Source: Trypanosoma brucei
Lineage: Eukaryota
DNA: 64,000 bases
Direction: 5' to 3'
Assembly (NCBI GenBank): GCA_000002445.1
Contig: AE017150.2
Span: 864,001-928,000, forward strand
Shown here: positions 1-41,359 of the stretch, one piece after another
How positions within the stretch are numbered: position 1 is the first letter of the stretch
Layout of the letters: the number at the start of each line of letters is the position of its first letter
The notes under the pieces: model-generated
Database searches by the model: none
Seen by the model: only the letters and a program-made list of their open reading frames with translations
Told to the model about the DNA's origin: nothing
Program-made: the position numbers and the translations under genes

Positions 1-993
1 CCCACTCATTGCAGCCTCGTCCATCTGCTTCCGCTTCTCACCTTCAGGGAGTCGGTAATTCATAAAAACAATACGCATCTCCTCTGGCGTCATGTCCTTC
101 ACCCAACCTCGTGCATTCAAGTAACGTCGAGCAAGTTCCCGCTCCCTCAAATCACGATGATAAGGGCTCAGTGGGTGGCTCGCTCTCCACAGGGTATCCA
201 GTAAACAGGGGTCACGCAAACCCTCCTCAATCTGTTCATCCGTCAGTGGTGACATATTGGGCCGGTGCAACCGCTCAATCAGTGGTGCCTCTTCAAGTTC
301 ACGCTGCCTCAACGTAGTATATTGTTCCATGTGTATACGCCTGTACCTTTCGCATTCCTCCGTGTACTGCTGCTCAGTCATATCTTTCACGGGGGAACTG
401 TAAGGTGTATCTACGCCAATGAAACAAACACCCATCCGCCTGGCTTGCCCAACAACGCGTCGTACACGGGTCTCCAGTAACGGGTACTCTGGACGTCCCC
501 AACACAACGGTTTCATTTTCGCTATTTCGTATGCCATCTCCAATGTCATCAGAGCACAGTAGTGCCCTCGCAGCGGCACAGGTCCCGTCTCCCGCCGCTT
601 CTTCCGAAGTGCACGCAGAATGAACCACGCAGTAGGTGGCGGTTCAATTGTAAAAAGATACGATTTGTCAAAGTACACTTGGATGCGAACAATCAGCTCG
701 ACATCTTCCTTGAAGTGTGGCTTCGTCCGGTCATTGAACACCTTCGCAAAATCCATCGCCTTCAGCCCAAGTTTCGAAAACTCTTGTCCCACGGGAGGAC
801 CCGTCGCCGCCTTCCCAGCCTTAATAAAGAAACGCCAGTTGTGCAATACACGCTTCCCAGGAAATTCAGGTCGCCCAAATATATCCCTCGCCTTCTCAAC
901 CACCAAAGCTTCAGGCAGTCGGTTTGAACCAGGTTCTACACACACCGTCTTGGGCCGTGCCCTTAGTTGAAGGACGCCACACGCGCGGAGCAT
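1..993 (-). CDS. mitochondrial ribosomal protein uL11 (bacterial-type L11), partial; C-terminus lies beyond window start
   Basis: Manual translation of the minus strand from the ATG at 993 is open to the window edge. It reads ...FIKAGKAATGPPVGQEFSKLGLKAMDFAKVFNDRTKPHFKEDVELIVRIQVYFDKSYLFTIEPPPTAWFILRAL..., which matches the bacterial L11 N-terminal domain pattern (AGKAxPxPPVGPALG...). The long C-terminal extension is typical of kinetoplastid mito-ribosomal proteins. It is absent from the ORF track only because there is no stop codon inside the window. Confidence 0.6.
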   Translation of the reverse strand, partial: MLRACGVLQLRARPKTVCVEPGSNRLPEALVVEKARDIFGRPEFPGKRVLHNWRFFIKAGKAATGPPVGQEFSKLGLKAMDFAKVFNDRTKPHFKEDVELIVRIQVYFDKSYLFTIEPPPTAWFILRALRKKRRETGPVPLRGHYCALMTLEMAYEIAKMKPLCWGRPEYPLLETRVRRVVGQARRMGVCFIGVDTPYSSPVKDMTEQQYTEECERYRRIHMEQYTTLRQRELEEAPLIERLHRPNMSPLTDEQIEEGLRDPCLLDTLWRASHPLSPYHRDLRERELARRYLNARGWVKDMTPEEMRIVFMNYRLPEGEKRKQMDEAAMSG

Positions 994-1535
994 CAGTCAA
1001 CTGTCACTAAATGGCTTACACACAATTACTAGTTGTAAGTCCTTATATACAGTTGCGTACCAGAAGAGAAGAGGGAAGAGATAGTAACAGCAAGCATCCA
1101 AAGAAATGGGCGAGACGGTATACAGGAAACATGTGTATGCATGTAGGCAGTAAGTAGAGCCCGTGCAGCAAGCAAAGGAAATGGTGAAACAGCACAATTA
1201 CCGTATAGTGAAGAGAAGCTTCAGAAACACAAATACAACAAAATGTAAAGGGAAGGGAAGGAATAATACTGAGACCACACACACACGCACACAGAAAGAG
1301 AGAGAGAGAGAGACGTACAGACAAACAAGGAGAAAAAACTCCTCACGATGATTCACATTCCAACACGCGGCATACGACAGTTCCTACCGCAACCGCGTCG
1401 CGCCATATTAACGCACACACTCACTCCATAAATGAATCAAATGTTCAGCACCCGCATCGATCACATCCTAAGCAATGCATTACTCAGTGCATGGCCAAGG
1501 GGAGAGTGCACATCCCAACAAGCTATAATAGCATC

Positions 1536-2516
1536 CTACTCAATTATACCACACAGAAACGACAAGAATAACAGGATACAACAAACAGGAAACGGCACCT
1601 TGTACAGAAGGAACACACTCAATAGTGAGTACATCTCCCTCCCAGAATCAGGTGCAATAACATTCGTCATTCTGCTTGCCTCGCCGACAGCTGCTTCATA
1701 CCCATTACTGCACCGACCGCTAGGAACAGTACCTGAAGCACAGTTAACAGGAGAATAAACCAATGGAGAAGCCGAAGCAGCAGTCTGATCCCCAGCACCC
1801 TTTGGGGAGTGACGGCTCCTCAACGCTGTCGAAGGTGGAGACACCTCTCCTCCAGCATTCCTTACAGCTGAACCTAACTGTGGCTGTGCTGCCGGAGCTT
1901 TCTCCACAGCCGCAGTCTCACAACCTTCCACAAGTCCTTCCACCTTTCCATGACTTCGCTTCATCACAAGGCTATCCGGAACACCCAACTCCCCATAAAT
2001 ACAGCGAAGTGCACACCGAACAGCATTCCGCTCCCTCGCCTGCACACGTCCACGTTGCTTCCAAAATGCAGCAGCGACGTCCGGACCGCTAGGGCCCTTT
2101 CTACTACAGTCACCTCCAAAGAAACCACTCACAGACTCATACGGTGCCATAACTTCCCTCGGCACCACACATATATCCACGAACACCTCATCCCTTGTGC
2201 CAGCGTCTGGCAACTCCACAGCTCCTTCCTCCACGCCACCACGCCTCGCTGCGAGACGACGGAGCCTACGGATGTCAAGCATAAACTTCACCCTCACACA
2301 TTCACCAGCAAATATCAGTCCAACAGATGGTTGAACACCATAGCGATTGCGTACAGCACTGAGAACTTTGAACGCCACAACATTCTCACAAGGGTCCTCA
2401 GTACGTACAAGTAGACTACTTAACTCGATAATATTCTCAATACTGGCATCCGTCAGAGGAGAAGGAAAGTACAGGCACTCCTGTGAAAAACAAACAATGC
2501 CCCCACCACCCTTCAT
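1536..2516 (-). CDS. hypothetical protein (no recognisable domain)
   Basis: 326-aa ORF on the strand used by the PTU. The C-terminal ~50 codons run into low-complexity (CA/GA) sequence, so the true boundaries are uncertain. Confidence 0.3.
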   Translation of the reverse strand: MKGGGGIVCFSQECLYFPSPLTDASIENIIELSSLLVRTEDPCENVVAFKVLSAVRNRYGVQPSVGLIFAGECVRVKFMLDIRRLRRLAARRGGVEEGAVELPDAGTRDEVFVDICVVPREVMAPYESVSGFFGGDCSRKGPSGPDVAAAFWKQRGRVQARERNAVRCALRCIYGELGVPDSLVMKRSHGKVEGLVEGCETAAVEKAPAAQPQLGSAVRNAGGEVSPPSTALRSRHSPKGAGDQTAASASPLVYSPVNCASGTVPSGRCSNGYEAAVGEASRMTNVIAPDSGREMYSLLSVFLLYKVPFPVCCILLFLSFLCGIIE

Positions 2517-3016
2517 CGTGGATGAAAGATACGAAACACTAATTACTCACCCGTAAGAAAGGACAGATACGAAATAGAGAAGAAAAACATAAACACATTC
2601 CCGGGAAGTAATGACAGTCACAGATACAACAAGTATGAAAAAGAAGATATTACACCAATAATAAAATAGCAAAACACCAACCTCTAATACGGTCGAATAA
2701 ATATAAACATATAACATGTCCGCTACGCAACAATTAAGCGAAACAAAAAACAATGAAAGGATAGAAAAAATACAGCGCAAACTTCGTTGGGTTGTCAAAC
2801 AATTCAAAAACACAGATTATGTGGTTGCCCACAGCGCCAACAAATCATATAACCATGCCAAATAACGAGCTGAAAGCACTCCCCACTACGGTGTCATCCT
2901 CATGGTCATACCAATAAAGTAAAATACAGAGCAAAAAAATGATCATACATACCATTCGAACGTATCATAGTACAATGAAAGAGTGACAAACATTTATGCA
3001 GCCACGCAACTCAACA

Positions 3017-3205
3017 TTACAACATATATATACAAACAGTATTAGGCATGGAGAAATACTCCTTCACATTAACAATCACGCGTCCATCATCACCATCAGC
3101 AGCAGTCACATGCAGCGAACACACGGCAGTTAGCAAATATAAAAGACCGCACAGGAGAGCAGCACGCGTAAAACCAAAATTCACCATACGGGTGTCCATG
3201 CTCAT
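3017..3205 (-). pseudogene. truncated 5' fragment of the surface-protein gene at 4049-5104 (signal-peptide exon remnant)
   Basis: The 62-aa ORF MSMDTRMVNFGFTRAALLCGLLYLLTAVCSLHVTAADGDDGRVIVNVKEYFSM is about 90% identical to the first 52 residues of the 351-aa protein. It then diverges into A-rich non-coding sequence. Confidence 0.7.
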
Positions 3206-3441
3206 TGTCAGTGTTGCTTCCTTATGAGTTTATCAAATACACACATATGCGGGAAAGAGGGAAGAGCGTGTGAGTAAAGGGGAAATGCAACAGTGACAAT
3301 AGAAAAAGGAGTTACACAAGATATCAAATAATCACACATACACTCGAGGATAATAAACAAGAAATATGAAAAGGATAACACAAATAATAATGGAAGAGAG
3401 CAGCCATATCACATATCCCAACAAATTGGTTAGTGAGACAC
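3037..3441. repeat. direct repeat copy A (~405 bp, about 97% identical to 4938-5346): 5' end plus upstream region of the surface-protein gene
   Basis: Direct comparison of the sequence aaatactccttcacattaacaatcacgcgtccatcatca...caaattggttagtgag(a/g)cacaggtac in both locations. Confidence 0.85.
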
Positions 3442-4048
3442 AGGTACTCAAAACATTTATTATCATAATGGGCCAAGTATAACTCAGGGATTGAACACTA
3501 TGGAACTCTCGTTTAATGTAACCTCATATAGATTGTTAAAATTATCAAGTGCTGCAAGTTACACGTATAGCAATACATCACACGTAACAGGGAGGACCTA
3601 CAAGCCTCCCACATATACATGGAAGTAAAACATGAAATAACGCGAACTAAACATGACACCCACACACGAAATAAATAATCAACACTAACAACAACGAAAC
3701 AATGGGACATCAAACAGTAAAGATGGTTCAATGGGTCACACACTAAAAGAACAATGATGTGGTCGGAGGGAAGTGATGCCACACATCGGAAGTCCCTCGC
3801 AGAGCCAACATGGTACAAGGAGACCGTTAATATTAGGAACATAAAAGTAATAATTATATAAGAGAGTATTGAGCACTACTGAAAGTAATAGTAGGAAGTG
3901 AAACAATACACGAAGCTAGAAATTGTGACGGTCCGTAACGTAGGATGAAAGCGGTACAGTATTCATTACTCCACTTGATCCTAAACATCACTCAACCACC
4001 ACCCATGTGATACACGATGTGACGCTAATATTATTCACTGGTTCTCAT

Positions 4049-5104
4049 TTAGCCATAATATTGCAGGGCTAAGGGAGGAGCATCAAAACCCTCTGGGGGA
4101 GCAAAAGGTGTTGGCTCCAGGACAAACAACGGTTCTCCAACAACTTCACGCAGCGTCATGGGAATGATCTCCTTTTTAACATTATAATCACAGAACCAAC
4201 GTAAAAGGAAAAGCAGCAACACAATGAGGGAAACAACAGAAATTAGAGCTATGAGAATAATGTGCCAATTACTTCTCTCTTCCAATGACGCAGTTGTCAC
4301 AGTAACTTCTTCATCCTTTGTCACAGTTGGTTCCGGTACTTCGCCTGAGGCAGGTGCAGCTGTAGTTGTTGTCGTCGTGCTGATAGAATCGTGGACCTCG
4401 CAAACAACAACGTAGTCTTGAGACTTTGTTTCAAAGTTCTGACTTGTCCATCGGATAGTCCCAGAAGCCTCCCTGCCATCGTACCAGGTAGTCACATCTT
4501 CGTGTTCATGGTACCATGAAAGGGTATACAACTGACCACTCTTGGGATATTCACTACCCCAAAAGGATGGGTAACCATTCATTGGGGCCGCAAAAGCGTA
4601 TTTGACATATGAACCACGCCAGAACGCCACCCCGTGACCATCAGGCAAAGCCTTTGCAAACAATCCCTTATTCCAACGATACACACAATGACGTGAAGAT
4701 GCCGCGTCTCCAGGCTTACAACGCTTATCAGCTTCAAATACCCTTGTACTGCTGTACACAGCATCTCCACCAAGGTAGCTGACGGCCTCAAACTCAAAAA
4801 TTACACTCTTCATAGCATCCTGCAAACTTTGGTGTGCCGCCTCCGTTTGATCGGCAGGAAGCACAGCACCGTTGTCGACACAATATGCTTCAGCATTATC
4901 GTAACCAACAATGTACCGTTCGTGACGACTAAATGCAAAATTGTCCATAGAGAAATACTCCTTCACATTAACAATCACGCGTCCATCATCATCATCAGCA
5001 GCAGTCACATGCAGCGGACACACGGCAGTTAGCAATAATAAAATACCGCACAGGAGAGCAGCACGCGTAAAACCAAAATTCACCATACGGGTGTCCATGC
5101 TCAT
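4049..5104 (-). CDS. type I transmembrane surface glycoprotein-like protein (signal peptide, Cys-containing ectodomain, Thr-rich stalk, single TM, about 50-aa cytoplasmic tail)
   Basis: 351-aa ORF. The N-terminal hydrophobic signal is MSMDTRMVNFGFTRAALLCGILLLLTAVCPLHVTAA. The stalk is STTTTTTAAPASGEVPEPTVTKDEEVTVTT, the TM segment is WHIILIALISVVSLIVLLLFLL, and a cytoplasmic tail follows. The architecture resembles invariant-surface-glycoprotein-type proteins of trypanosomes; family membership is unverified. Confidence 0.6.
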   Translation of the reverse strand: MSMDTRMVNFGFTRAALLCGILLLLTAVCPLHVTAADDDDGRVIVNVKEYFSMDNFAFSRHERYIVGYDNAEAYCVDNGAVLPADQTEAAHQSLQDAMKSVIFEFEAVSYLGGDAVYSSTRVFEADKRCKPGDAASSRHCVYRWNKGLFAKALPDGHGVAFWRGSYVKYAFAAPMNGYPSFWGSEYPKSGQLYTLSWYHEHEDVTTWYDGREASGTIRWTSQNFETKSQDYVVVCEVHDSISTTTTTTAAPASGEVPEPTVTKDEEVTVTTASLEERSNWHIILIALISVVSLIVLLLFLLRWFCDYNVKKEIIPMTLREVVGEPLFVLEPTPFAPPEGFDAPPLALQYYG

Positions 5105-5346
5105 TGTCAGTGTTGTTTCCTTATGAGTCTATCAAATACACACATATGCGGGAAAGAGGGAAGAGCGTGTCAGTAAAGGGGAAATGCAACAGTGACAATA
5201 GAAAAAGGAGTTACACAAGATATCAAATAATCACACATACACTCGAGGATAATAAACAAGAAACATGAAAAAGGATAACACAAATAATAATGGAAGAGAG
5301 CAGCCATATCACATATCCCAACAAATTGGTTAGTGAGGCACAGGTA
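4938..5346. repeat. direct repeat copy B (partner of 3037-3441)
   Basis: Same evidence as copy A. Covers the 5' coding end and upstream region of the intact gene at 4049-5104. Confidence 0.85.
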
Positions 5347-7087
5347 CACGTCGTATTTGATACAATAGTGGAGAAACTAAAGCAGAAAGAATATACATTA
5401 TTCAACTCTTGTTTGGTACAACCCTACTGTGCGAGGTCACCCGGAGCATTCGAGAGTGATGAAAACCAAATCCTCGCCTATTCATTATCCACGTTAGTTG
5501 AGGAGCGGAACCAACACCGACCGTCACTTCGCAAAGACGAAAAAAAATATGCAGATACAGCATAACATATCAGCTACATGCATGGTTTATGTACTGGAGC
5601 ACAGCTGGACAGTCAGCGACATTTGTCACGTAATTGCGAAACATTGTCCGTTGTTTCGTGCTTGCTGAGAGACTCCTGTAAAGTACATACTCGTCAAAAT
5701 AACCTTAAGGAAGAAAGAGAAGAAAACTAGTGGCAAGCCTTTACGACAGTAGTGAAGTTTTTGCACAAATCCTTCATCACGTGCAAAACTGTTGTAGTCA
5801 TCATCTGTACACTAAATCATTGTGCGCGCCCCATTATTCATTGCTTACTATGTCGCTTTATTGCACTACGCTACGCTGTATAACCTCATCGTCTTGGAAG
5901 TAACGTGGGTCAGATGTGGACCGTTATGAAAAAGTCGTACAACCACCACACGTTGGAAGTGCCCGTGGCGAAGGCAGCGCCGTTGGAGAAGATCAACTTA
6001 TCTTTTGTCCACGTTACGTGCAAACGCAGTTACATCCTTCGGAAACCTTCTGAAGAGCATTAAACCTTCGAAAGACGTTACGCATTTTATCTCGGTCGTG
6101 CCCATACTTACGGCTATGACTCCTCAAAGGATAAATTGAGTAATTATATATGAGTAATCACTCTTCATTTGTCAAAAAAAAAAAGATGAAAGGAAAGGAA
6201 AGGGGGCAAGTTTTAAGATATTGATGTTGTGTAACGGACATGAGTTGCCCTCCATTCCATTTGAAAAAAAAAACAAGATATTTCCTTTATGTTACACACT
6301 CTCTCACATTGTTGTGATTCAGCATTATGAAGCTTACTGCTGCCACTGCCGCTGCCACGCGTTGATAACAGCAACAGCGAGTAGACGGTTTCAGAGGCCA
6401 CCCTCGCCATTTACCGTCCTTCTCGTTTACTTCTCTCCTTTACTAGTTTTGAGACTTCTTTTTTTTTTCTTTTTGCAGCTATCCCCGTGCCTTGTGTCCT
6501 TCGCGTTTGCACAACATAAAGGGGAACTTTGGAGGAGGGGGGGAGGCGATGCCTTTTTATAATGTCATGTGCTCTGTACGAAGCAGAGGAGGGGAGTTAA
6601 ACAGCGTTGTGCTGCTGGCACGAGACGGGGGTTAGACATTTCCTCCAATGCGCATGTCAAAATACACGGGAGGGCTCAAGCAATGTGCAGCACTCACTTT
6701 ACCAGGCAAACCACCTAAAAACAGTCTCTCCACCCCGAGTCAGCATCAAGAGCAGAGGATGGTTGGAGTTAGGATGAAAAAAAAAACTGAGAACGTGAAC
6801 AAGTTAGCGAATGTAAAGTTGAGGGAATCAAGGTACTTTCGTTTTTACACACACACACATACCTACCTACTTGAGCACAGAGCTAAAAAAGAAAATGGGT
6901 AAACTATTTCCCACGCTACTCCACACCATTCTGTCTGACGGAGAGTCCTATGAAGGCAAGAAGCGCCACTCGCTAACCCAACCCATTTCTCCTTCTTTAC
7001 GTGTATCGAAGTTTGTGGAATAAGAAGGAAACTCCTAAAACATACACAAACACACACACACGTATATATATATATACTTCACCACTC

Positions 7088-8126: not shown

Positions 8127-8170
<44 letters not shown>
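8127..8170. repeat. (CA)22 microsatellite in the 3' flank/UTR of the zinc-finger gene
   Basis: Uninterrupted cacaca tract read directly from the sequence. Confidence 0.95.
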
Positions 8171-8175
<5 letters not shown>

Positions 8176-8187
8176 AGACACCTCCAT

Positions 8188-11100
8188 TCATTCATGCAGC
8201 GGCAACAAACCTCCTGCTGCGGTTGTGCATTTAGAACCACCACTGTTAGCGGCGGAATTGGCTGTGGTGTGCCTTTTACACTTACAGATATCATTCATAT
8301 TCGTCCCAACCACCTCTGTCACCACTCGGGACTCACGGGGCACCGCTTTCCGATGTAGACAAGCAGGGCAAACAACATCGTTCACAATCCACTGACGCGG
8401 CAATTTCATGTATCGAAGGTACGCCCAACGCGTCTCACGATAAATGTGAGCCTTTTGCATAGGTCGCACGAGCTCGCACAACTGTGAGAGTACCTCAAAA
8501 CCTAGTTCGTCATAGTCGGTCGTGAGATTCATAAGATCGACCAAATCCAGCGCAATAGCTACCCAGGGCCTCTTGTGTGCCCACGAAACCACCGGCACGC
8601 CGTCAACAACGTTATTGGGCTTTCCTTCCAACGCCAACAAGCAAGCCAACTGAATAATCTCCGCCACGCTCCTTACGGCACTGTGCACTGTGCCATCCTC
8701 CAACACTGGCACCCGTGGGCGTATGCCGCACCTCAAACCTCGAGAAAGGTCACATCCACGCCAGGGCAACGCTGCCTCCTCTGCGCGCTGTAGTGCAGCG
8801 ACTGCGGAACGAAGTAACTTCAAAGCGGTCGAAGGGGAGAGCTCACCATGCGCCGCGCGACGGACCGCGTTGAGAACTATCTTAAGCCTCAAACGGTGAA
8901 CTATCTCTTGCTCCGCCGGCCACACACTGGAAGGCAAAGACCGTCGTTGGTTGCAGTGGTTACATGCAGGACAGACACCGGCTAGATTTTCCAAATGCAA
9001 AAACGTCCCACATGAAGCGCAAGGGGATGGCCCTAAGGGCAGCGGAAAAAGTAGTGCAGTGGGTAAGCAAACCTCAGCACCACCCGGTGAGACACCGTCG
9101 CCGTCTCCCGCAGGGTGGTTCCCGCTGCCGCTAATGTCTTCAACTTCCTTGACTGTGTGATGTAGGTCACTCGCAACCGCAGCCCCGCCAACCTTCTGTT
9201 CAGCAGCGCTGGGATGCATGTCAGTGCACGAACGTATTTCTCGGTACCGAAGAGGATTTGTATAATAAGTAGCGACAGCAACGGCATCGTGAGCAGCACC
9301 ACAGTGCAGGCACGCTAACAGTCCCTCACCACTACCTTTTCGCAAATTGACGCCTAAACAGTTGTTTTTCAGGCAAACCCAAAGCGTGCAAGCGGTATGT
9401 GGGCGAGGAGCATGGCACGTTGGACAAGCCACAGCCTCCTTACCATCGTAGAGGCTACCGCAATGTGGACACGAAGTGTATGCCGGCTCCACCCCACCCT
9501 CAGTAAAATCAATGTCACGTCGGCCTGGATCCCTCTCTGTAGGCTCGAGCACATCCTCGCAGCTACGACAGACAACACTCCACGCAGGGCATGTTGCTCC
9601 ACAGCGAGTGCATTGTCGGGTGGCCCACGGTGTGTCAAGGCGAGTAAATGACGCAGATTTGGTGGCGCCACAGCCGTGACAATGAGTAAGTAGCCATGGG
9701 CAAGCCGTATGGCACTCCACACAACGCCACAATGTCTTTGGAGGACCCGAAGCGGCAGCTGTACACAATGTCCCGCAAAGGGAACACCAAGGACGGAGCA
9801 TCCCAAGAGGATTGTGCCGTCCGCAAACCCTGCAGTCGAATGCAGTTCGCGCCATGGCCTCTTCCATCGTTGGCTGAGGGGATGCACACCGTGCGCAGTA
9901 GAATAAATGTTGCGGTTCGTTTGTGTGGCTGCATCGACCACAGCGCCAGCGTCGTAGTGGAAAGATGGTGCAACCATCAAGAGGAAGCGCGTCACATCCA
10001 ACACCCGCTCCCCGTTCCAATGTTTCCGCTCCACATACAAGACAAATAGGGAAGTTACTGGGAGAAAATCCCCCACAGCCGCGGCATTGAATGACTGCTA
10101 GCTCCAGCGTACCACAGTATTGACACGTGCTGGCACCCCTCCTGTTCCATCGAGTGCATGACCGGCACCTCCACGGCTGTCGCTGCCGCCCAACGTACCG
10201 TCGAAATTCTAAAGCACTCTGCACAGCTTTCAGCACCTTGTCCGTGTGCTCACCCATTTCTGTGGTCGTGACACGGTGGTTCAACGACTCCAATGACGCG
10301 AGTGGCATTTCGTGCAGTGGGCTTAGGTGAGTAACGGGGCATCGAGGCGCGCCCACCACGTCGAGGAGTACAACGCTTATTCCTTCAACGAAACCCAAAC
10401 TAAGGAAGTGCTGAAGGGCCATACGACGCGCACCCAACCCAGGGTGCGCGCGATCCAACAGAGACAAGAGGCAGAAGTGGTCGGATGTAGCTTCCCCGGA
10501 ACGGCATTCACCAAGAAGACGCACGTACAATTCTACAACCTTCGAAAGGAGTCCATCCCTTCGGTAAGTTTCCACTGATGTGTGGCGGTGCAGCAATGCG
10601 TGAAGCAGCTGCAGGCATTCATAAGGCGTAGCATATCCCAAATGACTGTCGTTCGCACCAGCACACCCATGGGCAACTGCAGAAAAGGCGACTGCCGGAG
10701 GTATAGGAAATTTCCATGCTCGCGTCAGGTCGTACAAGCGGAACATACCCACCAAAGCCTCCTCAAATCCTGATTCACTGCAGTACCGCCTAGATGCCCC
10801 CTCCACAGCTTCCAACATCAAATCACGGATGTAGTGAGGGAGGCCGGCAGCAAAGTGCCGCCTCGCACCCAGTAAAAAATGTGTGAAAACCTCCACAGCC
10901 TCAGAATACCTCCCCAACAACACGAGTGCTTTGCCGCCCTCCCACGAACCACCCAATGATGGACAGTCGTGTAGATGCCTCTCAATGATTTCATAGGCGC
11001 CACAGCGTAGAAATAACTTGAAGGAAATGCGAATAGCCTCCCTTAGGCGCCGATCAACCACTGCCCGCGCCCCGCGGTGGAGACCGATGGCATCACGGTC

Positions 11101-12462
11101 ACAGCCGACGGCGGGCGCGCTCCGCTCCAGGGCGTTAAGGTGGGCAACACAACGCGACAGGAGAGAGGATGTTTTCTCTTTCGCATACGCGTTAACGTCT
11201 GGGGCGGTCTCACCAACGTGTCCAACTGTCATGAGAGTGTAGGCGTCAAGCAACAACACTTCTCTGTACACCAAGGGCCCAAATCGCCCTGCTGCGGCAG
11301 AGACAAGCGGAGATTCCAGGCCAGCGACGTCATCCCCCCGCACGGAAGCGTGAGAAGCAGATACCAGGGCACTGTGAAGAAGTAAAATTGGTAGTACGCG
11401 GCCGTGGCGACGGAATGAACAAATGGTACGGCGAAGCGACTGCAACGCGCCGACCTTCGTGCGAGTTCCTACGTCCGTACGGGCAAGCACAAAGTGCGCG
11501 TAACGCACCATCTCAAAAAGAAGCAAGCGCCAAAAAGGGGAAAAGCGCTCTGCCTCCGAAGGAATACAGGAAATTGGTAAAATATTTTGTAACGATAAAA
11601 GCAGTCTCTCTTCTCTCTCGTTCTCACCAAACAGGCACCCATCCAATGCATCCAGCTCTGAGCCGTCATTCGGGAATTGGAAAAGATAACCAGTTGGGGC
11701 CCGGCACACTTCCACCGTTGCGGACTCTAGCAACTCGGTATTTTCAACGTCAGGGCTCACCGCGCACCGCCACAACAACCACAGCACCCCTCCGTGTGCA
11801 CCACGTTTCACCAACAGCTGCATGCTCTTCCGCAAAGGACCTCCAGTGGTGTCCTCAGCTGCAGCAGCACAGGCAAGTGGCAAAAGAAGGTGCACACTCA
11901 AAATATTATCTTGCCGCAACCAGTATGTAAAAATTGTTGTTGCACAATCCCACGTTTCTTGCACTGTCCAGAAGAACTCGTACTTCTTTTCACTCCGTTC
12001 CGCATGCCAACCGCGGCCTAACCGGCATCCACCAACCATGTCCCTCACGAACAGAGCATACTCCCTTTGCACGCCACAGAGAAGCCGCCAGGATCCCCCC
12101 TCCTCTGAAGTAGCGGTGGCTTTATGACGAGTATTTTCCTCACCACCCGGAACCAAAGGAAATGGGGGAGGAGTGTCTAAAAGACCCGCCACAGCGCTTG
12201 CGCCCAGCCCTGTCGCGACTATAATGTCACACAATATTCCCTCGCGTATAAGCGAACGCAGCGGCAGGGAGTTGTACAAAAAGAAAGAAACCGACAGTGC
12301 TGCGTCCGACCGACCCTTCGTCACGTGAAACAACTCGCTGAACAAGTGCGACTTCAGGGAGGGTTTGCTACCCTCAGGGTTAAAGGCGATGCCATACTCT
12401 ACCGGCACAACACAACGCGCGTGCGCAACAGCACTCTGCCGGATAAAAGGTGGCTTCAGCAT
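8188..12462 (-). CDS. large protein (1424 aa) with at least 7 RanBP2-type zinc fingers in its C-terminal half
   Basis: Repeated W-x-C-x2-C-x3-N-x6-C-x2-C motifs, for example WRCRSCTRWNRRGASTCQYCG, WRCGRCSHTNEPQHLFYCARCA, FDCRVCGRHNPLGMLRPWCSLCG, WRCVECHTACPWLLTHCHGCG, WATRQCTRCGATCPAWSVVCRSC and YTSCPHCGSLYDGKEAVACPTCH. The N-terminal ~700 aa show no recognisable domain. Confidence 0.65.
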   Translation of the reverse strand: MLKPPFIRQSAVAHARCVVPVEYGIAFNPEGSKPSLKSHLFSELFHVTKGRSDAALSVSFFLYNSLPLRSLIREGILCDIIVATGLGASAVAGLLDTPPPFPLVPGGEENTRHKATATSEEGGSWRLLCGVQREYALFVRDMVGGCRLGRGWHAERSEKKYEFFWTVQETWDCATTIFTYWLRQDNILSVHLLLPLACAAAAEDTTGGPLRKSMQLLVKRGAHGGVLWLLWRCAVSPDVENTELLESATVEVCRAPTGYLFQFPNDGSELDALDGCLFGENEREERLLLSLQNILPISCIPSEAERFSPFWRLLLFEMVRYAHFVLARTDVGTRTKVGALQSLRRTICSFRRHGRVLPILLLHSALVSASHASVRGDDVAGLESPLVSAAAGRFGPLVYREVLLLDAYTLMTVGHVGETAPDVNAYAKEKTSSLLSRCVAHLNALERSAPAVGCDRDAIGLHRGARAVVDRRLREAIRISFKLFLRCGAYEIIERHLHDCPSLGGSWEGGKALVLLGRYSEAVEVFTHFLLGARRHFAAGLPHYIRDLMLEAVEGASRRYCSESGFEEALVGMFRLYDLTRAWKFPIPPAVAFSAVAHGCAGANDSHLGYATPYECLQLLHALLHRHTSVETYRRDGLLSKVVELYVRLLGECRSGEATSDHFCLLSLLDRAHPGLGARRMALQHFLSLGFVEGISVVLLDVVGAPRCPVTHLSPLHEMPLASLESLNHRVTTTEMGEHTDKVLKAVQSALEFRRYVGRQRQPWRCRSCTRWNRRGASTCQYCGTLELAVIQCRGCGGFSPSNFPICLVCGAETLERGAGVGCDALPLDGCTIFPLRRWRCGRCSHTNEPQHLFYCARCASPQPTMEEAMARTAFDCRVCGRHNPLGMLRPWCSLCGTLCTAAASGPPKTLWRCVECHTACPWLLTHCHGCGATKSASFTRLDTPWATRQCTRCGATCPAWSVVCRSCEDVLEPTERDPGRRDIDFTEGGVEPAYTSCPHCGSLYDGKEAVACPTCHAPRPHTACTLWVCLKNNCLGVNLRKGSGEGLLACLHCGAAHDAVAVATYYTNPLRYREIRSCTDMHPSAAEQKVGGAAVASDLHHTVKEVEDISGSGNHPAGDGDGVSPGGAEVCLPTALLFPLPLGPSPCASCGTFLHLENLAGVCPACNHCNQRRSLPSSVWPAEQEIVHRLRLKIVLNAVRRAAHGELSPSTALKLLRSAVAALQRAEEAALPWRGCDLSRGLRCGIRPRVPVLEDGTVHSAVRSVAEIIQLACLLALEGKPNNVVDGVPVVSWAHKRPWVAIALDLVDLMNLTTDYDELGFEVLSQLCELVRPMQKAHIYRETRWAYLRYMKLPRQWIVNDVVCPACLHRKAVPRESRVVTEVVGTNMNDICKCKRHTTANSAANSGGSKCTTAAGGLLPLHE

Positions 12463-16787: not shown

Positions 16788-19433
16788 TCAAAACGGTCCG
16801 GAGGGCCCCTCTGACGAGACAAATCTCCCCTGTCCGTTGCTCTTGATATCGGGGCGGAGCATCACAGCAGCAGCTGCAACAAGTTGCTCCACACGGGTCA
16901 ATGTCTCTGTTTCCTCTCGCGTCAACGAACGGCCAACTGACTCCTGCGACTCCAAAAACAACCGAAGAGTCTCCTCACACTTCTGCAGTGGAAGAAGAAG
17001 TCTGCCGGGGGTACTCTGCGAAGAACAGTGGGAAGAATCACTTGACGCATCCACAGTGAGCTGCGATCCCTGTGAACCCCCTTTGATTGCCTTTGTTTCT
17101 GAAGTTGGAACCCGACCCAAGTGGGGAAAAAGCATTTGCCAGACGGTAACTTGTGGCGCCAATAAGGCCTCGCATGAGTGCATGGTCACGTCGCCACCAG
17201 TAGTAAGCCCCTTCCCTTCCAGAATCTGACGGAGTGCCGTAGCGACAGAGCCCCCAGGACACAACTCCGCCACCGGTACCGAGGTTTCGCGCTGCGCAAA
17301 AAGGTACAAACACACCGCCGCGTGGTAGCGCAAGATCCCCTCCACACACTGAGACCTGTCGGCTGGCTCTCCGCTGAGCCTACTACCATGTAAGTCGCTT
17401 CCGGATTCCAAGGGTTTGAAGCTTATCTGCACCAGGCGGTGCAACAGTGTGCTATAGGCTGAATCACCACACTGTAAAAGTCCTGCAACAGCAACAATCT
17501 CCGCAGCTACAAATCGTGCACACACGCGAACATCATCCGACGAGTCAGCTGAGTTGTAAAGCGCCTCAATAGCACGCGTGGCAACAGAGAACAAGGGCAC
17601 CACGTTGATGCTACGTGAACCGCTCGTGTGGTTGCACTGCCGCAAAATTTCAACAAGCTTTCCTGGGACCGATGTTAGAACCATGCACAGACGTTGTTTC
17701 TGATCCCCTTCATTGTGTGAAAAAGCGGATTGAAGCTCGTCATGGAGAGCCGAAACAGCCGTTCCCGGTGGAGTCGCTGACACCGCTGCACCCGCTGCGC
17801 GCTCATTACCGCTGAGCACCAGCATCTCCTCCCACCACCACTGATACACACGCGACTGGTGGTACAGTATGCTTACCATGCGATGAAACGTCGGACCTTC
17901 CGGAGGCACGGATCCAACCGTAGAGTCGTTCCTTGTGCCAGTGAGCACCTCAGGCGGGACTCGCAACAGGCGGCATATCTCCGCTGTAAGGACGGCTAGT
18001 AGATTGAGAAATCTGCGCAGAGTCTCCACTTTATCATGCTGCAGAGTATGTGATCTGCGCAGAGCACATAGCTGTCCCTCGCCTAGGAGCAGCAGCTCTT
18101 CCCCCAAGGTTCGACGCAAAGCGCCAGGAAGAGCGTGTAGCGCCGCCTCCCACACCAACAGCACCCGAGCGGCGCTAGTATCGTTTGGTACAAGAAGCGC
18201 GGCAAGCAAAATACTGAAAACCCGAAAGCGCTGTAGCACACCGCACATGAAGCCACTCCCATTCTTTTCGAGGTTTCCGTCCTGCTGATCCAACTGCACG
18301 CTCCTTCGAACGGTACTACGCAGCAGCAACATGAGCTGTGCCCCAAGGTCAAGCTCCTGTGACGACTCCATCGCTTCCACCTCATGCCCCCGACCTGCGT
18401 AGTACACCTCCCGTGGGAGCTCCTTTGCGAGCTGTGAGACGCGTTTGTGCAGTGCACATGCCCCACTATCTTGCTCAACAAGGACAACTGTCATGTCTGG
18501 TAGCCACAAGAGCGAAACCTCCAACAACCGCTCTAGAGAAGCTGGCTTCTCCAACAACGGCACCATCGAACGCGCCATCGCCAACATGGCCGTCATTGCT
18601 GCCACCGCCGTTATAGAATCAACGTCCACCTCATCTCCCAACGATGTCGCTACCTCCGAAGGAGCAGTTCTCAGACACTTCACAAGCAACGGCGACCAGC
18701 CCCCATCCTCCCCAACCTGCTGTTCACCCAGTGTTCCCCCTAAAGCTCCGAGTGTGCCAAGCAGCCGCACCCCAACTTGTTTCTGCAGTTGTTGCGCAGC
18801 CTCCCCATTCTCGGTAGTAACAAGTGTGAAGACGGTCGTGATATGAAGATCCAATATCGAGTTAACAAATGCTTCATCCCGCACCGCAAACGACGGATGC
18901 TTCCTCACGGTCGAAACAAGGTATGAGGCCACGAAGGTTGTGAGTTTAATTTGTTTCGGATCAGACCAGTCGTGCGAAAAAATGTGGTGCTGTAGTTGCG
19001 AGAGCATGAAGTGTAGAATTTTGCAGTAAAGGCCCGCGGTAACATCTTTCAGGGCGGCAACTGAAAGCAGGAGTTTCCATGCAGTGTTCAGTAGCGACAT
19101 GCTGTGGGAACCGCCAACAGAGTTACACAACTGCAGCAGTTCCGGAACAGCTTGCTTATGATGCAAAAGGACTGCGTTTTCATCGAGAGTCCGTATAGAG
19201 TCCGCCTTCCCGGATGACAAAGCCGTCCGGAGGGCGTTAAGTGTGCCTTCCTCACTACCATGTTCCTGTGTCATGAAAACAATCCTTATTGTTGATGAAG
19301 GTATGTATATATTTCTACGTAGACGCGTACGCAAGAATGTCCTTCTGCCCAAAACTCCCCTAGTAAATGCACAAAACGCACACATGTGTACAAACCCAGT
19401 AATTACAGCAAGGGGAAAAGGTAAGCGATTCAA
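16788..19433 (-). CDS. hypothetical large protein (about 830-880 aa; likely helical-repeat)
   Basis: 881-aa ORF in PTU orientation. The true start is probably MTQEHGSEEG at about 19274, because the first 53 codons are odd. No domain recognised. Confidence 0.45.
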   Translation of the reverse strand: MNRLPFPLAVITGFVHMCAFCAFTRGVLGRRTFLRTRLRRNIYIPSSTIRIVFMTQEHGSEEGTLNALRTALSSGKADSIRTLDENAVLLHHKQAVPELLQLCNSVGGSHSMSLLNTAWKLLLSVAALKDVTAGLYCKILHFMLSQLQHHIFSHDWSDPKQIKLTTFVASYLVSTVRKHPSFAVRDEAFVNSILDLHITTVFTLVTTENGEAAQQLQKQVGVRLLGTLGALGGTLGEQQVGEDGGWSPLLVKCLRTAPSEVATSLGDEVDVDSITAVAAMTAMLAMARSMVPLLEKPASLERLLEVSLLWLPDMTVVLVEQDSGACALHKRVSQLAKELPREVYYAGRGHEVEAMESSQELDLGAQLMLLLRSTVRRSVQLDQQDGNLEKNGSGFMCGVLQRFRVFSILLAALLVPNDTSAARVLLVWEAALHALPGALRRTLGEELLLLGEGQLCALRRSHTLQHDKVETLRRFLNLLAVLTAEICRLLRVPPEVLTGTRNDSTVGSVPPEGPTFHRMVSILYHQSRVYQWWWEEMLVLSGNERAAGAAVSATPPGTAVSALHDELQSAFSHNEGDQKQRLCMVLTSVPGKLVEILRQCNHTSGSRSINVVPLFSVATRAIEALYNSADSSDDVRVCARFVAAEIVAVAGLLQCGDSAYSTLLHRLVQISFKPLESGSDLHGSRLSGEPADRSQCVEGILRYHAAVCLYLFAQRETSVPVAELCPGGSVATALRQILEGKGLTTGGDVTMHSCEALLAPQVTVWQMLFPHLGRVPTSETKAIKGGSQGSQLTVDASSDSSHCSSQSTPGRLLLPLQKCEETLRLFLESQESVGRSLTREETETLTRVEQLVAAAAVMLRPDIKSNGQGRFVSSEGPSGPF

Positions 19434-34934: not shown

Positions 34935-34954
34935 TACTAATCACGCTAATACAA

Positions 34955-35518
34955 ACCTCATAATCAGACGCAAATCCAACATAGAAAAAGAAAAGGGGAT
35001 AAATCCGGTTAATTCCTCCTTCCGCCACACCAGCAGCACAAACACAACAAAAATGACGAAAAATGATACCAAATCACAACTACAAAAGAAAAAAATAAAA
35101 GTTACGAAACCATCCCGACACCTTGAAACATTTGAACAACACAAATAGCTGCGGGGGCTACGACAACCACAACAACGCAGCAACCAGTGGACCCTCTGAG
35201 GGACGGATGCTCGCACCGCAAAGAAAACTTCGGAGAGCACCACACACACACACACACACCCGTCTGAACCGCTCCCGTCGCGAGAAACAGCCTCCGCCTC
35301 TTCTCAGGTCAAGCACCGCTTAATACCACCGAACCAACATTCCCCACTGCATTCCGCACCCACACCACGGAAACACCACCGTCCAGACACGCTACAACAG
35401 TAAATATGAGTAGGGCCCGTCAAAACACACGGCATCCGGTGGGAAATGCCAACACGTTGCCACAAATTGGCGCAATCATGCAAAAGTCACTACCGCAACA
35501 ACCGAGGGCACTCCAGTA
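34955..35518 (-). repeat. intact SIRE-like interspersed repeat (~565 bp; segments X'+A), inverted relative to the split copy at 36640-37057 + 41360-41505
   Basis: The reverse complement of 35095-35518 matches 36640-37057 almost perfectly, including an internal (CA)8. The reverse complement of 34955-35095 matches 41360-41505. The contiguous small ORFs (66 aa MKHLNNTN..., 104 aa MCVCVV...) are mirrored on both strands. Confidence 0.85.
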
Positions 35519-36639
35519 GCCTCAGTTGTCATATCTTCGCTTTTCCTCCCGCTCCTGGAGACACCCTTGCTGTCCCACCAACCGCCTGAATCTACGCGCA
35601 CCTGCCCGCAGACGGCCCTTTTGTCACCGGTTTCCGCCCACACCTGTCACCGCAGCAACAGCCCGCCTATACTCCACGAGCCGGTGCCGGCAGAGGGAAG
35701 TGCCTTGCTTTTCGCATAATGCCACTGAACAAAGTCCCAAGCGAAAACAATGAGGGACAGCCGCACAAGACCGCCCAGTAGCGTAGTGACGGCAGCTCAG
35801 ATAGAGCGCTGCGGACCCAATGGATGCCATGACGGCTCTGAGGTTTACCCCCCCCCCCCCCGTGGAGGCAAACTCAGCGAGACCGGGGTCAAAGGGCCCA
35901 CTTGCCTTGTTCTGCCGATAAAACATAGAAAGGCGACAGGTGACCCGCGGCATCTGGTTTCCTGTCAGCAAGGTGGTGTCGACCACTGCAGCCCCATCGT
36001 GCAGTGGGTGCCATTCCCCAGCGTAAGAAAAGCATCGGTTGGGTGTGTGCCCTATCTGGTCCCCGGATGAACCTTCCCAACATATCGCTAGTCACATTCT
36101 TTTGCGGCGACCCACCCTCAAGCCCTTGCTAGCGGCCAAAGCTCTTCAGACACGGGTGTACTGGTACTTGTTGAGGATTTCCCTCACCTTATTCGGGTTC
36201 CATCTTTGGTGCTTCAGTGCGTTAGAAGGTCCGCCATATGCTGGCTCGTTGGGTGCATTTTTCGATACGTAGAACACGGTCTCAACGTCTTATTGGCGAA
36301 GCTCCGGCAAATTGCTATGGGGGCCCAGTGACCGGGCAAAGGTCCTACGTTTGAGGAGTCGCGGCTGACGGGCGACTTTTGAGTACCACATTTCAAAGGA
36401 AAATGGGGGGGGGGCGGCCAGTGATTCAATCGGTTCGTCCGGAACATTAAGTGGCCTTGGAGATGAAATCCTTTACTTGCCTCGGAAGCGACGCAAATCT
36501 CTCACTATAGTTGGGGAGAAATAGCCCTCGCCCCTCCGGCGTCCAAGCTTGCACGCGGAAGTACCCTAAGGGTGACGCTACCTAATCATAGAGGGACAAC
36601 GCATCACAAGAACTTCGAACTGCGGAAAGATAAGAGTGC

Positions 36640-37057
36640 CCTCGGTTGTTGCGGTAGTGACTTTTGCATGATTGCGCCAATTTGTGGCAACGTGTTGGCA
36701 TTTCCCACCGGATGCCGTGTGTTTTGACGGGCCCTACTCATATTTACTGTTGTAGCGTGTCTGGACGGTGGTGTTTCCGTGGTGTGGGTGCGGAATGCAG
36801 TGGGGAATGTTGGTTCGGTGGTATTAAGCGGTGCTTGACCTGAGAAGAGGCGGAGGCTGTTTCTCGCGACGGGAGCGGTTCAGACGGGTGTGTGTGTGTG
36901 TGTGTGGTGCTCTCCGAAGTTTTCTTTGCGGTGCGAGCATCCGTCCCTCAGAGGGTCCACTGGTTGCTGCGTTGTTGTGGTTGTCGTAGCCCCCGCAGCT
37001 ATTTGTGTTGTTCAAATGTTTCAAGGTGTCGGGATGGTTTCGTAACTTTTATTTTTG
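36640..37057 (+). repeat. 5' part (A') of the split SIRE-like repeat, flanking the retroelement
   Basis: Matches the reverse complement of 35095-35518. Similarity stops at cttttattttt|gtgagg. Confidence 0.85.
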
Positions 37058-41163: not shown

Positions 41164-41359
41164 TAGGGAGCGCGGGAGGCGGGATGAGAACGCTTTCACC
41201 AATTCCTTATCGTAAGTGTTTTGTTTCTTTCATTGTCTTAATATTGGGAGTTTTACCTACATTGAAAAAGCTTACCGTGATACCCCAAAATTGGCCATTT
41301 AAATAATTATATCTTTATCATAATTCTCTTCTATATGTAGGAGTAGGTAAGGTGCAAAC

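What the first reader, a model, noticed from the sequence alone, without database searches (positions are those of the whole stretch)
4049..5104. Candidate lineage-specific type I surface glycoprotein with Thr-rich stalk
The protein has a cleavable-looking signal peptide and an ectodomain of about 250 aa with 7 cysteines. It also has an STTTTTTAAPASGEVPEPTV stalk typical of O-glycosylated mucin-like linkers, a single TM segment and a ~50-aa proline-containing cytoplasmic tail ending ...PPLALQYYG. This architecture resembles trypanosome invariant surface glycoproteins, but I could not place it in a named family from memory. Together with the partial duplicate it marks a potentially fast-evolving surface locus embedded among housekeeping genes.
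Basis: partly seen in the sequence, partly recalled or inferred. Interest (0 to 1): 0.5.

Follow-up and report, generated by a model that had tools for sequence, protein, structure and literature searches.

The report
Known trypanosome ER lectin-like protein IGP40
The gene is an already described member of the Trypanosoma brucei IGP40 "invariant glycoprotein" family, whose tested member sits in the endoplasmic reticulum rather than on the cell surface, so the finding is real but ordinary.

Summary
The 351-aa ORF is real, on the minus strand at 4049..5104. It has the described layout: signal peptide, lumenal/ecto domain, poly-Thr stalk, one TM helix and a 49-aa Pro-rich tail. It does belong to a named family. 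Pfam PF16825 ("IGP family C-type lectin domain") matches at E=1.3e-85. The protein is identical to T. brucei TREU927 XP_951669.1/Q586T1. The published IGP40 qRT-PCR primers and the forward RNAi primer match it exactly. Synteny with T. b. gambiense and T. b. equiperdum places it as the dispersed IGP40 copy next to the GDSL esterase gene, most likely Tb927.2.4920. Allison et al. 2014 showed that HA-tagged IGP40 (paralog Tb927.2.5330) co-localises with BiP in the ER of bloodstream forms. It is retained through its lumenal domain, runs at its polypeptide mass and turns over in about 30 min. A structure model matches only C-type lectin-like folds. The partial duplicate is real: 402 bp at 97% identity. 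The gene is 5-7x more diverged between subspecies than its neighbours at both synonymous and non-synonymous sites, which points to paralog gene conversion. A surface role in tsetse salivary-gland stages is not excluded. Verdict: already known, low interest.

The parts
4049..5104 (-). Complete CDS (351 codons + TAA) of an IGP40-subfamily invariant glycoprotein. Identical to T. brucei TREU927 XP_951669.1 / UniProt Q586T1; most likely Tb927.2.4920.
   Evidence: ORF; exact database match; Pfam PF16825 E=1.3e-85; published IGP40 primers match exactly at 4997-5014(-), 4517-4537(+) and 4667-4688(-); synteny with the T. b. gambiense and equiperdum loci.
5000..5104 (-). Signal peptide, aa 1-35. Predicted cleavage after VTA(35) or TAA(36).
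   Evidence: Hydropathy and the -3/-1 rule read from the sequence. Allison et al. report a predicted signal peptide in all 20 IGPs. No dedicated predictor was available.
4397..4915 (-). IGP-family C-type lectin-like domain (PF16825/DUF5075), aa 64-236, with conserved Cys75, 129, 140 and 235.
4268..4384 (-). Stalk/linker, aa 241-279, including the T6 run (aa 243-248, nt 4361-4378) and an acidic Thr/Val/Pro-rich stretch.
   Evidence: Sequence. Poly-T length varies from 6 to 11 among T. brucei-group copies. Published NetOGlyc prediction for this gene family. Low pLDDT, so probably disordered.
4199..4267 (-). Single transmembrane helix, aa ~280-302.
   Evidence: Hydropathy maximum 3.4; AF2 helix 280-308.
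4052..4198 (-). Cytoplasmic tail, aa 303-351. It has a juxtamembrane Cys305 and a K-x-x-x-P-M-T-L-R-E motif conserved in T. congolense and T. vivax homologs and in IGP48. There is no C-terminal di-lysine signal. It ends at a CAA->TAA nonsense codon relative to paralogs.
   Evidence: Alignment A1. DNA after the stop still reads MRTSE* in frame, which is the C-terminus of paralogs P0002/P0003.
3047..3447 (-). Partial duplicate: a relic 5' end of an IGP40 gene (243 bp of 5' flank with polypyrimidine tract/AG, the ATG at 3205 and the first 53 codons). It continues as a 62-codon ORF (3017-3205) that runs into unrelated sequence.
   Evidence: The same relic lies downstream of the IGP40 gene in the T. 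b. gambiense and equiperdum loci and is annotated as a 41-aa fragment in T. b. gambiense (CBH09534).
4946..5347 (-). The counterpart of the duplicated segment in the intact gene: the first 53 codons plus 243 bp upstream, containing the probable trans-splice acceptor region.
   Evidence: That it is a splice acceptor is inferred from the CT-rich tract followed by AG, about 30-75 nt upstream of the ATG.

Best explanation
This is one of the two dispersed copies of the T. brucei IGP40 gene family, most likely Tb927.2.4920. IGP40 is a subfamily of the kinetoplastid-specific 'invariant glycoproteins' (IGP34/40/48).

The product is a type I membrane protein. A signal peptide puts a C-type-lectin-like domain of about 200 aa, with two probable disulfides, into the ER lumen. 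A short disordered poly-Thr/acidic stalk, one TM helix and a 49-aa cytoplasmic tail follow.

By homology with the tested paralog (83-95% identity within the subfamily), it most likely stays in the ER. Retention would come from its lumenal domain, probably through self-association or association with other ER components, and not from a cytoplasmic retrieval signal. The likely role is a short-lived, lectin-like ER factor that helps fold or sort secretory or surface cargo, an ERGIC-53-like role. Expression rises in transmission stages (stumpy forms, salivary-gland epimastigotes).

Shown: identity, family membership, domain fold, architecture, locus structure and elevated divergence.
Taken from the literature on a paralog or the whole subfamily: ER localisation, lumenal-domain retention, ~30 min half-life, growth defect on pan-IGP40 RNAi, stage regulation.
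Inferred: that this particular copy behaves the same way; the cargo/lectin function; oligomerisation, which was shown only for IGP48.
For: Family and identity:
- Pfam PF16825 matches over its full length, E=1.3e-85.
- The sequence is identical to TREU927 XP_951669.1.
- The IGP40 qRT-PCR primers and the forward RNAi primer from Allison et al. 2014 match the ORF with 0 mismatches. The 19-nt core of the reverse RNAi primer also matches exactly, although the 22-nt string as stored does not.
- Tb927.2.4760 and Tb927.2.4920 are on the authors' list of ten IGP40 genes.
- The window carries DNAJ2 (Tb927.2.5160) and PRP19 (Tb927.2.5240) 42-53 kb away.
- It is collinear with the gambiense/equiperdum order 1424aa-GDSL-IGP40-relic-326aa-L11.

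Fold:
- C75 lies in helix 68-77 and C235 in the last strand 233-238, as in the canonical CTLD alpha1-beta5 disulfide.
- A profile search gives weak hits to conglutinin, SP-A and CD93.

Literature:
- ER localisation, lumenal-domain retention, migration at the polypeptide mass, ~30 min half-life and an RNAi growth defect (PMC4497807).
- Up-regulated in stumpy forms.
- Up-regulated in salivary-gland parasites: log2FC 2.3 for Tb927.2.4920.

Selection: orthologs in three subspecies keep the ORF intact with dN/dS about 0.3.
Against: - Localisation was done with an ectopically expressed C-terminally HA-tagged paralog (Tb927.2.5330), in bloodstream forms only. This copy was never tested individually.
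- The copy lacks any N-glycosylation sequon, so 'glycoprotein' is unproven for it.
- The canonical Ca2+/sugar-binding motifs of C-type lectins (EPN/QPD and WND) are not evident. The sequence has WYD at 207-209, and there is no Pfam Lectin_C hit at E<=1. Carbohydrate binding is therefore not established.
- The most conserved stretch (aa 114-190) was modelled with low confidence.
- IGP48 knock-down gave no bulk glycan defect.
- A poly-Thr stalk is unusual for a resident ER protein.
- mRNA peaks together with genuine surface-coat genes in epimastigotes.
Confidence: 0.85

Rival explanations
1. One reading: a genuine cell-surface type I glycoprotein. It would travel through the Golgi, have its poly-Thr stalk O-glycosylated, and be displayed on the plasma membrane, perhaps only in tsetse salivary-gland epimastigotes, with the lectin-like domain binding host or vector ligands.
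For: - Signal peptide, mucin-like stalk, TM and tail architecture.
- Naguleswaran et al. 2021 list Tb927.2.4760/.4920/.5290-.5360 as membrane proteins with poly-Thr stretches 'highly likely to be O-glycosylated'. Their mRNA peaks in salivary glands, in the BARP-positive epimastigote population.
- Telleria et al. 2014 report 4-10x higher expression in salivary-gland parasites than in bloodstream forms.
- The TM and tail carry no ER-retention signal and allow surface/endosomal delivery when the ectodomain is replaced.
Against: - IGP40-HA co-localises with BiP, and the ectodomain fused to the ISG65 TM/tail still stays in the ER.
- IGP40-HA runs at its predicted polypeptide mass, so it is not heavily glycosylated in bloodstream forms.
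- IGP48 stays in the ER in stumpy forms too.
- No protein-level or localisation data exist for insect stages.
- From general knowledge: mucin-type O-glycosylation is well established in T. cruzi but not in T. brucei.
Confidence: 0.12
2. A decaying, functionally redundant dispersed copy (incipient pseudogene) left by segmental duplication. It would be kept only by gene conversion from the tandem array, with no role of its own.
For: - The C-terminus is cut short by a CAA->TAA nonsense change relative to paralogs.
- A truncated relic copy lies 840 bp downstream.
- The locus is part of a segmental duplication of at least 5.5 kb.
- The equiperdum annotation does not call the orthologous ORF.
- Synonymous divergence is elevated, indicating sequence exchange.
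Against: - The ORF is intact in TREU927, T. b. gambiense and T. b. equiperdum. The same early stop position is shared, and dN/dS is 0.26-0.33 between orthologs.
- All conserved family residues are kept.
- Transcripts assigned to Tb927.2.4920 are regulated.
Confidence: 0.03

Closest known systems
T. brucei IGP40 subfamily (Tb927.2.4760, .4920, .5290-.5360; Allison et al. 2014, Microb Cell 1:325)
   Same: It is a member. It has the PF16825 domain, 83-95% identity to other T. brucei-group IGP40 proteins, the same architecture, location on chromosome 2, exact primer matches and the poly-Thr stretch.
   Different: - It is a dispersed copy outside the 8-gene tandem array.
- It has the shortest poly-T run seen (6, against 8-11).
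- The C-terminus is 6-12 residues shorter because of a nonsense change.
- It carries a distinctive patch at aa 99-125 (SVIFEFEAVS...TRVFEA), shared only with the equiperdum ortholog.
- It has no N-glycosylation sequon, like most IGP40 copies examined.
- It was not the copy that was localised experimentally.
IGP48 / IGP34 subfamilies of the same family
   Same: The same CTLD-like domain with the same four cysteines, type I topology and a conserved juxtamembrane x-P/V-M-T/S-L-R-E motif (IGP48). Identity is 30-36%.
   Different: IGP48 has a DENTTV repeat 'trimerisation' region with about 15 N-glycan sites in place of the poly-Thr stalk, and a longer half-life. IGP34 lacks the cytoplasmic tail in the aligned sequence.
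Invariant surface glycoproteins ISG65/ISG75
   Same: Overall layout (signal peptide, ectodomain, one TM, short tail), size, and expression from non-telomeric housekeeping regions. This resemblance is what the IGP name alludes to.
   Different: There is no sequence homology: no ISG Pfam hit and separate clades. From general knowledge, ISGs are helical-bundle surface/endosomal proteins, whereas this protein has a CTLD fold and the tested IGP40 member is in the ER.
Metazoan C-type lectin-like domains (e.g. tetranectin, CD93, collectins)
   Different: - No Pfam Lectin_C match at E<=1.
- EPN/QPD and WND sugar/Ca2+ motifs are not evident (WYD instead).
- The second Cys pair (129/140) lies within an enlarged, family-specific loop region (aa 114-190).
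- Ligand unknown.
ERGIC-53/LMAN1 (functional analogy proposed by Allison et al.)
   Same: A type I protein with a lumenal lectin-type domain, stalk, TM and short tail; oligomerisation (shown for IGP48); early-secretory-pathway residence; no bulk secretion defect on depletion.
   Different: No sequence relationship. From general knowledge, ERGIC-53 has an L-type (legume-like) lectin fold and a C-terminal KKFF retrieval signal. This protein ends in QYYG with no di-lysine motif, and retention maps to the lumenal domain.

Membership tests
IGP family (Pfam PF16825 / DUF5075) | Match to the family-defining PF16825 domain above the gathering score | tested here: met
   285.9 bits against a cut-off of 22.6, E=1.3e-85, profile positions 1-173 of 173.
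IGP family (Pfam PF16825 / DUF5075) | Type I topology: N-terminal signal peptide, single TM, short cytoplasmic tail | tested here: met
   Hydropathy shows two hydrophobic segments, aa 10-35 and 280-304. The -3/-1 residues are V/A. The tail is 49 aa. AF2 gives a helix at 280-308. No SignalP/TMHMM was available.
IGP family (Pfam PF16825 / DUF5075) | Conserved four-cysteine C-type-lectin-like fold of the lumenal domain | tested here: met
IGP family (Pfam PF16825 / DUF5075) | At least one N-glycosylation sequon. This is part of the authors' rationale for the name. It is descriptive and is not the criterion used to delimit the family. | tested here: not met
   There is no N-x-S/T in this protein, nor in 6 of the 7 other T. 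brucei-group IGP40 sequences examined. Both candidate gene IDs are nonetheless on the authors' own IGP40 list, and IGP40-HA ran at its polypeptide mass.
IGP family (Pfam PF16825 / DUF5075) | Restriction to kinetoplastids | tested here: met
   All 14 homologs found among 5.8 billion proteins are Trypanosoma proteins carrying PF16825. The word-index search is not exhaustive for distant relatives.
IGP40 subfamily | High identity to other IGP40 genes (authors: 85-100% within a subfamily) and only 25-30% to IGP48 | tested here: met
   83-95% to T. brucei-group IGP40 proteins; 34-36% to IGP48-type P0010; 30-31% to IGP34-type P0013. The pan-IGP40 qRT-PCR primers and forward RNAi primer match with 0 mismatches, as does the 19-nt core of the reverse RNAi primer.
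IGP40 subfamily | Chromosome 2 location; gene is Tb927.2.4760, .4920 or .5290-.5360 | tested here: met
   Identical to a TREU927 protein on the 1,193,948-bp contig. DNAJ2 (Tb927.2.5160) and PRP19 (Tb927.2.5240) lie in the same window. Synteny matches the gambiense 353-aa copy next to GDSL. The exact ID (.4920 rather than .4760) is inferred, because TriTrypDB could not be queried.
IGP40 subfamily | ER localisation through the lumenal domain | not testable with these tools
   Shown experimentally only for HA-tagged Tb927.2.5330 in bloodstream forms.
ISG65/ISG75 invariant surface glycoproteins | Sequence homology to the ISG ectodomain family | tested here: not met
   No ISG Pfam family among hits at E<=1. 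The homolog search returned only PF16825 proteins. The literature places IGPs and ISGs in separate clades.
Canonical Ca2+-dependent C-type lectins (Pfam PF00059) | Lectin_C profile match and EPN/QPD + WND carbohydrate/Ca2+-binding motifs | tested here: not met
   No PF00059 hit at E<=1. Only E~0.03 profile hits to the N-terminal half of collectin CTLDs. By inspection WYD replaces WND and there is no EPN/QPD. The fold is nevertheless CTLD-like.

The most novel reading that the evidence does not exclude
In tsetse salivary-gland epimastigotes, IGP40 proteins including this copy might escape ER retention. They would then be O-glycosylated on the poly-Thr stalk and act as a stage-specific surface lectin-like coat component, for example in attachment to the gland epithelium. 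The same family would then be an ER resident in the mammal and a surface molecule in the fly. The two literatures (Allison 2014, 'ER-localised IGP40'; Naguleswaran 2021, 'novel poly-threonine membrane protein family') describe the same genes. The later paper's main text never uses the IGP name (a text search for 'IGP' returned 0 occurrences).
Probability: 0.12. Interest if true: 0.5.

Novelty: already known. Interest (0 to 1): 0.1.

Why it matters
It matters little as a discovery. The gene, its family, its Pfam domain, its expression pattern and the recombining nature of the array are all published. Three points are useful:

1. It corrects the label. This is an ER-type IGP40, not an unplaced ISG-like surface protein.
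2. Two papers describe the same ten genes under different descriptions, and the later one does not use the IGP name.
3. Some small copy-specific facts emerge that a specialist could use when designing copy-specific reagents or interpreting multi-mapping reads: no N-glycan sequon, a truncated C-terminus, the shortest poly-T run, membership of a segmental duplication of at least 5.5 kb, and mosaic divergence.

Tried and rejected
- A sequence search of the PDB with the single protein found nothing. With the family profile, the top 'presenilin' hits are artefacts of the low-complexity stalk plus TM helix. Only weak hits (E~0.03) fall on CTLDs.
- A weak internal tblastn hit at 17117-17338 (E=0.006) suggested a second lectin-like domain in the 881-aa ORF. 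Direct BLASTP and Pfam show nothing, so it is chance and in a different frame.
- I first took the equiperdum locus L001 (P0001) to be the ortholog and read the end of collinearity at 5510 as a synteny break. Fetching the loci that carry the GDSL neighbour showed that L001 is the paralogous 'A' copy of a segmental duplication, and that L002/L003 are the true orthologous loci. The divergence figures are therefore paralog comparisons; one search gives the ortholog ones.
- Exact look-ups of the window protein, P0003 and the 326-aa neighbour in the contig index returned nothing.
- Literature searches for the IDs of the immediate neighbours (Tb927.2.4740-4780, 4890-4950) gave no usable descriptions. 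The .4920 assignment therefore rests on synteny and on counting from DNAJ2/PRP19.
- The RNAi reverse primer as stored (22 nt) did not match. A 19-nt core without one extra T does match. I assume a text-extraction error in the supplement.
- No tRNA and no Rfam family was found anywhere in the window.

Full report
**1. What is in the sequence**

A 351-codon ORF from ATG to TAA occupies 4049..5104 on the minus strand.

The protein has these parts:
- An N-terminal signal-like segment: basic n-region, hydrophobic core around aa 15-31, then V33-T34-A35|A36.
- A hydrophilic region of about 244 aa.
- The stretch ISTTTTTTAAPASGEVPEPTVTKDEEVTVTTASLEER at aa 241-277.
- One strongly hydrophobic segment at aa ~280-302.
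- A 49-residue tail with eight prolines, ending PPLALQYYG.

Seven is the count for the whole precursor. Two lie in the signal peptide, one (C305) is cytoplasmic, and four (C75, C129, C140, C235) are in the ectodomain. The protein contains no N-x-S/T sequon.

The 'partial duplicate' is real. Positions 3047-3447 match 4946-5347 over 402 bp at 97% identity. That segment covers 243 bp of 5' flank and the first 53 codons, with weaker similarity further upstream. The relic keeps the ATG and reads as a 62-codon ORF that runs into unrelated sequence.

**2. What it is**

- Pfam places the protein in a named family. PF16825 (DUF5075, 'IGP family C-type lectin domain') matches over the full profile, aa 64-236, at 285.9 bits and E=1.3e-85.
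- The exact 351-aa sequence is already public as XP_951669.1 / AAQ15950.1 / UniProt Q586T1 from T. brucei brucei TREU927 chromosome 2.
- Its closest relatives are T. brucei-group proteins at 80-95% identity, followed by T. congolense and T. vivax PF16825 proteins at 35-46%.
- The family was described by Allison et al. 2014 (PMC4497807) as 'invariant glycoproteins', with subfamilies IGP34, IGP40 and IGP48. PF16825 was created for it.
- The paper's pan-IGP40 qRT-PCR primers match the ORF without mismatch, at 4997-5014 and 4517-4537. So does the forward RNAi primer, at 4667-4688. A 19-nt core of the reverse RNAi primer also matches exactly.
- The ten IGP40 genes are Tb927.2.4760.4920 and .5290-.5360.

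**3. Which copy**

- The window also encodes DNAJ2 (Tb927.2.5160) at 46.8 kb and PRP19 (Tb927.2.5240) at 57.2 kb. Only about 16 ORFs of 200 aa or more lie between the IGP40 gene and DNAJ2.
- Loci fetched through the neighbouring GDSL esterase show the order 1424aa - GDSL - IGP40 - relic - 326aa (MSP-like) - L11 - DSP phosphatase - phosducin-like. This holds in both T. b. gambiense and T. b. equiperdum. Both are collinear with window 1-17.9 kb, at 99.4% upstream and about 98% across the IGP40 segment.
- The gambiense gene there is the 353-aa CBH09548. It is 95% identical to the window protein and shows the same early stop.
- The window gene is therefore the upstream-most dispersed copy, most likely Tb927.2.4920.
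- A second locus in equiperdum (L001) has the order 940aa - IGP40 - relic - 326aa - L11 - GT22 - RRM protein. It aligns to window 1-5510 at 97.5% and then stops. This is the paralogous copy (Tb927.2.4760-like). The block [L11 - 326aa - relic - IGP40 + ~400 bp] is thus a segmental duplication of at least 5.5 kb.

**4. Fold**

An AlphaFold2 model built from 18 family sequences is only partly confident (mean pLDDT 52.9). The core at aa 45-113 and 191-240 and the TM helix are good. The long, highly conserved loop region at aa 114-190 is poor.

At the sequence level the link to canonical C-type lectins is marginal. There is no PF00059 hit at E<=1 and the profile hits are around E~0.03. The EPN/QPD and WND sugar/Ca2+ motifs are not evident; the protein has WYD, with W207 and D209 invariant. 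So it has a lectin fold, but lectin activity is unproven.

**5. How it most likely works**

The following comes from the literature on the subfamily:
- HA-tagged IGP40 (Tb927.2.5330) overlaps extensively with BiP in bloodstream forms.
- Replacing the TM and tail with those of ISG65 leaves it in the ER.
- Replacing the lumenal domain with BiPN releases it to endosomes, the cell surface and the medium.
- It migrates at about its polypeptide mass.
- Its half-life is about 30 min.
- Pan-IGP40 RNAi slows growth.
- All three subfamilies rise in stumpy forms.
- IGP48 forms oligomers and is needed for normal ER morphology.
- The authors propose an ERGIC-53-like role.

Other transcriptome studies show the same ten genes 4-10x up in salivary-gland parasites. 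Tb927.2.4920 has log2FC 2.3 against the proventriculus and is expressed mainly in BARP-positive epimastigotes.

My best explanation is therefore an ER-resident, short-lived, lectin-fold type I protein that is retained through its lumenal domain and conditions the secretory pathway in transmission stages. Its application to this untested copy, and the cargo/lectin function, are inferences.

Points from the sequence that fit this view:
- There is no C-terminal di-lysine signal.
- A juxtamembrane K-x-x-x-P-M-T-L-R-E motif is conserved from T. brucei to T. congolense and T. vivax and in IGP48, which suggests a still unknown cytosolic partner.

Points that sit less well:
- A poly-Thr stalk in an ER protein.
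- Co-regulation with surface-coat genes.

**6. The 'surface glycoprotein' reading**

This is not excluded for insect stages. Naguleswaran et al. [quoted passage not shown] It is contradicted for bloodstream forms by the data above. There is no homology to ISGs. I give it about 0.12.

A pseudogene reading gets about 0.03. In its favour are the nonsense-shortened C-terminus, where CAA->TAA leaves the downstream frame still reading MRTSE*. Against it, the ORF is intact with the same stop position in three subspecies and dN/dS is about 0.3.

**7. 'Fast-evolving locus'**

This is partly supported:

| Comparison | dS | dN |
|---|---|---|
| IGP40, syntenic orthologs | 0.061-0.087 | 0.016-0.029 |
| Flanking GDSL, 326-aa and 1424-aa genes | ~0.008-0.015 | 0-0.008 |

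- Both site classes are raised 5-7 fold and dN/dS is 0.26-0.33. This points to sequence exchange among paralogs rather than demonstrable positive selection.
- The differences are patchy. The aa 99-125 patch is shared with the equiperdum ortholog but is replaced by array-type sequence in gambiense.
- This agrees with published results for the Tb927.2.5290 array: Ds 0.156 and Dn 0.078, 8 copies against 24 in gambiense, and significant recombination tests.
- The poly-T length varies from 6 to 11 among copies.

**8. Verdict**

The gene, its family, its localisation (for a paralog), its expression and its array dynamics are all published. Novelty is 'already known' and interest is low.

Noticed in passing
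window 1-5510; L001 9596-15132; L002/L003 9751-17862: The block [mitochondrial-type L11 gene - 326-aa MSP-like gene - IGP40 relic - IGP40 + ~400 bp upstream] exists twice on chromosome 2, at about 97.5% identity. One copy is followed by GT22/RRM genes and the other (this window) by DSP phosphatase/phosducin-like genes. The 326-aa paralogs differ by only dS~0.013, whereas the IGP40 CDSs differ by dS 0.12.
   Followed up: partly
window 3017-3447 (-): The relic IGP40 5' end keeps its polypyrimidine tract, AG and ATG. It lies about 840 bp downstream of the IGP40 stop codon. In trypanosomes such a splice-acceptor region would also set the polyadenylation site of the upstream IGP40 mRNA (inference). 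Its residues (GDDG, SMPN) resemble array-type copies more than the adjacent gene.
   Followed up: partly
window 34954-41503: The divergent strand-switch region contains a perfect 423-nt inverted repeat (35091-35513 / 36634-37056, 1120-nt spacer). Its continuation (34954-35097 against 41360-41503, 97%) is interrupted by an insert of about 4.3 kb made of broken ORFs, one with a gag-like CCHC zinc knuckle (37868-38440). This looks like a degenerate retroelement inserted into one arm.
   Followed up: partly
window 4049-4066 (-): The IGP40 stop codon is a CAA->TAA change relative to paralogs. The next in-frame codons still read MRTSE*, the paralog C-terminus. The gambiense and equiperdum orthologs stop at the same position.
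   Followed up: yes
L003 12740-13807 (T. b. equiperdum CM010673.1): An intact 355-codon IGP40 ORF orthologous to the window gene is present, but it is not among the called genes for that assembly.
   Followed up: partly
window 51957-52333 (+): Nine nearly perfect 42-nt tandem repeats (97% matches) lie inside the 713-aa ORF 51057-53198, which has no Pfam match. They encode a 14-aa Pro/Ala-rich repeat.
   Followed up: no
window 8127-8181: A (CA)27 microsatellite overlaps the last few bases and the immediate 3' side of the 1424-aa ORF (8188-12462, minus strand). That ORF has many CxxC...CxxC zinc-finger-like motifs (e.g. W-x-C-x2-C) but no Pfam hit at E<0.001.
   Followed up: no
window 4052-4198 (-); alignment A1: A cytoplasmic juxtamembrane motif K-E-I-I-P-M-T-L-R-E is conserved in T. 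congolense (KETTPMTLRE), T. vivax (EKVTPMVLRE) and IGP48 (KYITVMSLRE). Published domain swaps found no essential ER-retention signal in the TM and tail, so the motif's function is unknown.
   Followed up: no
literature (PMC4497807 and PMC8483307): The 2021 tsetse transcriptome paper presents Tb927.2.4760/.4920/.5290-.5360 as a 'novel family' of poly-threonine membrane proteins. A text search of its main text for 'IGP' returned no occurrence, so it does not connect them to the IGP40 family shown in 2014 to be ER-localised.
   Followed up: yes
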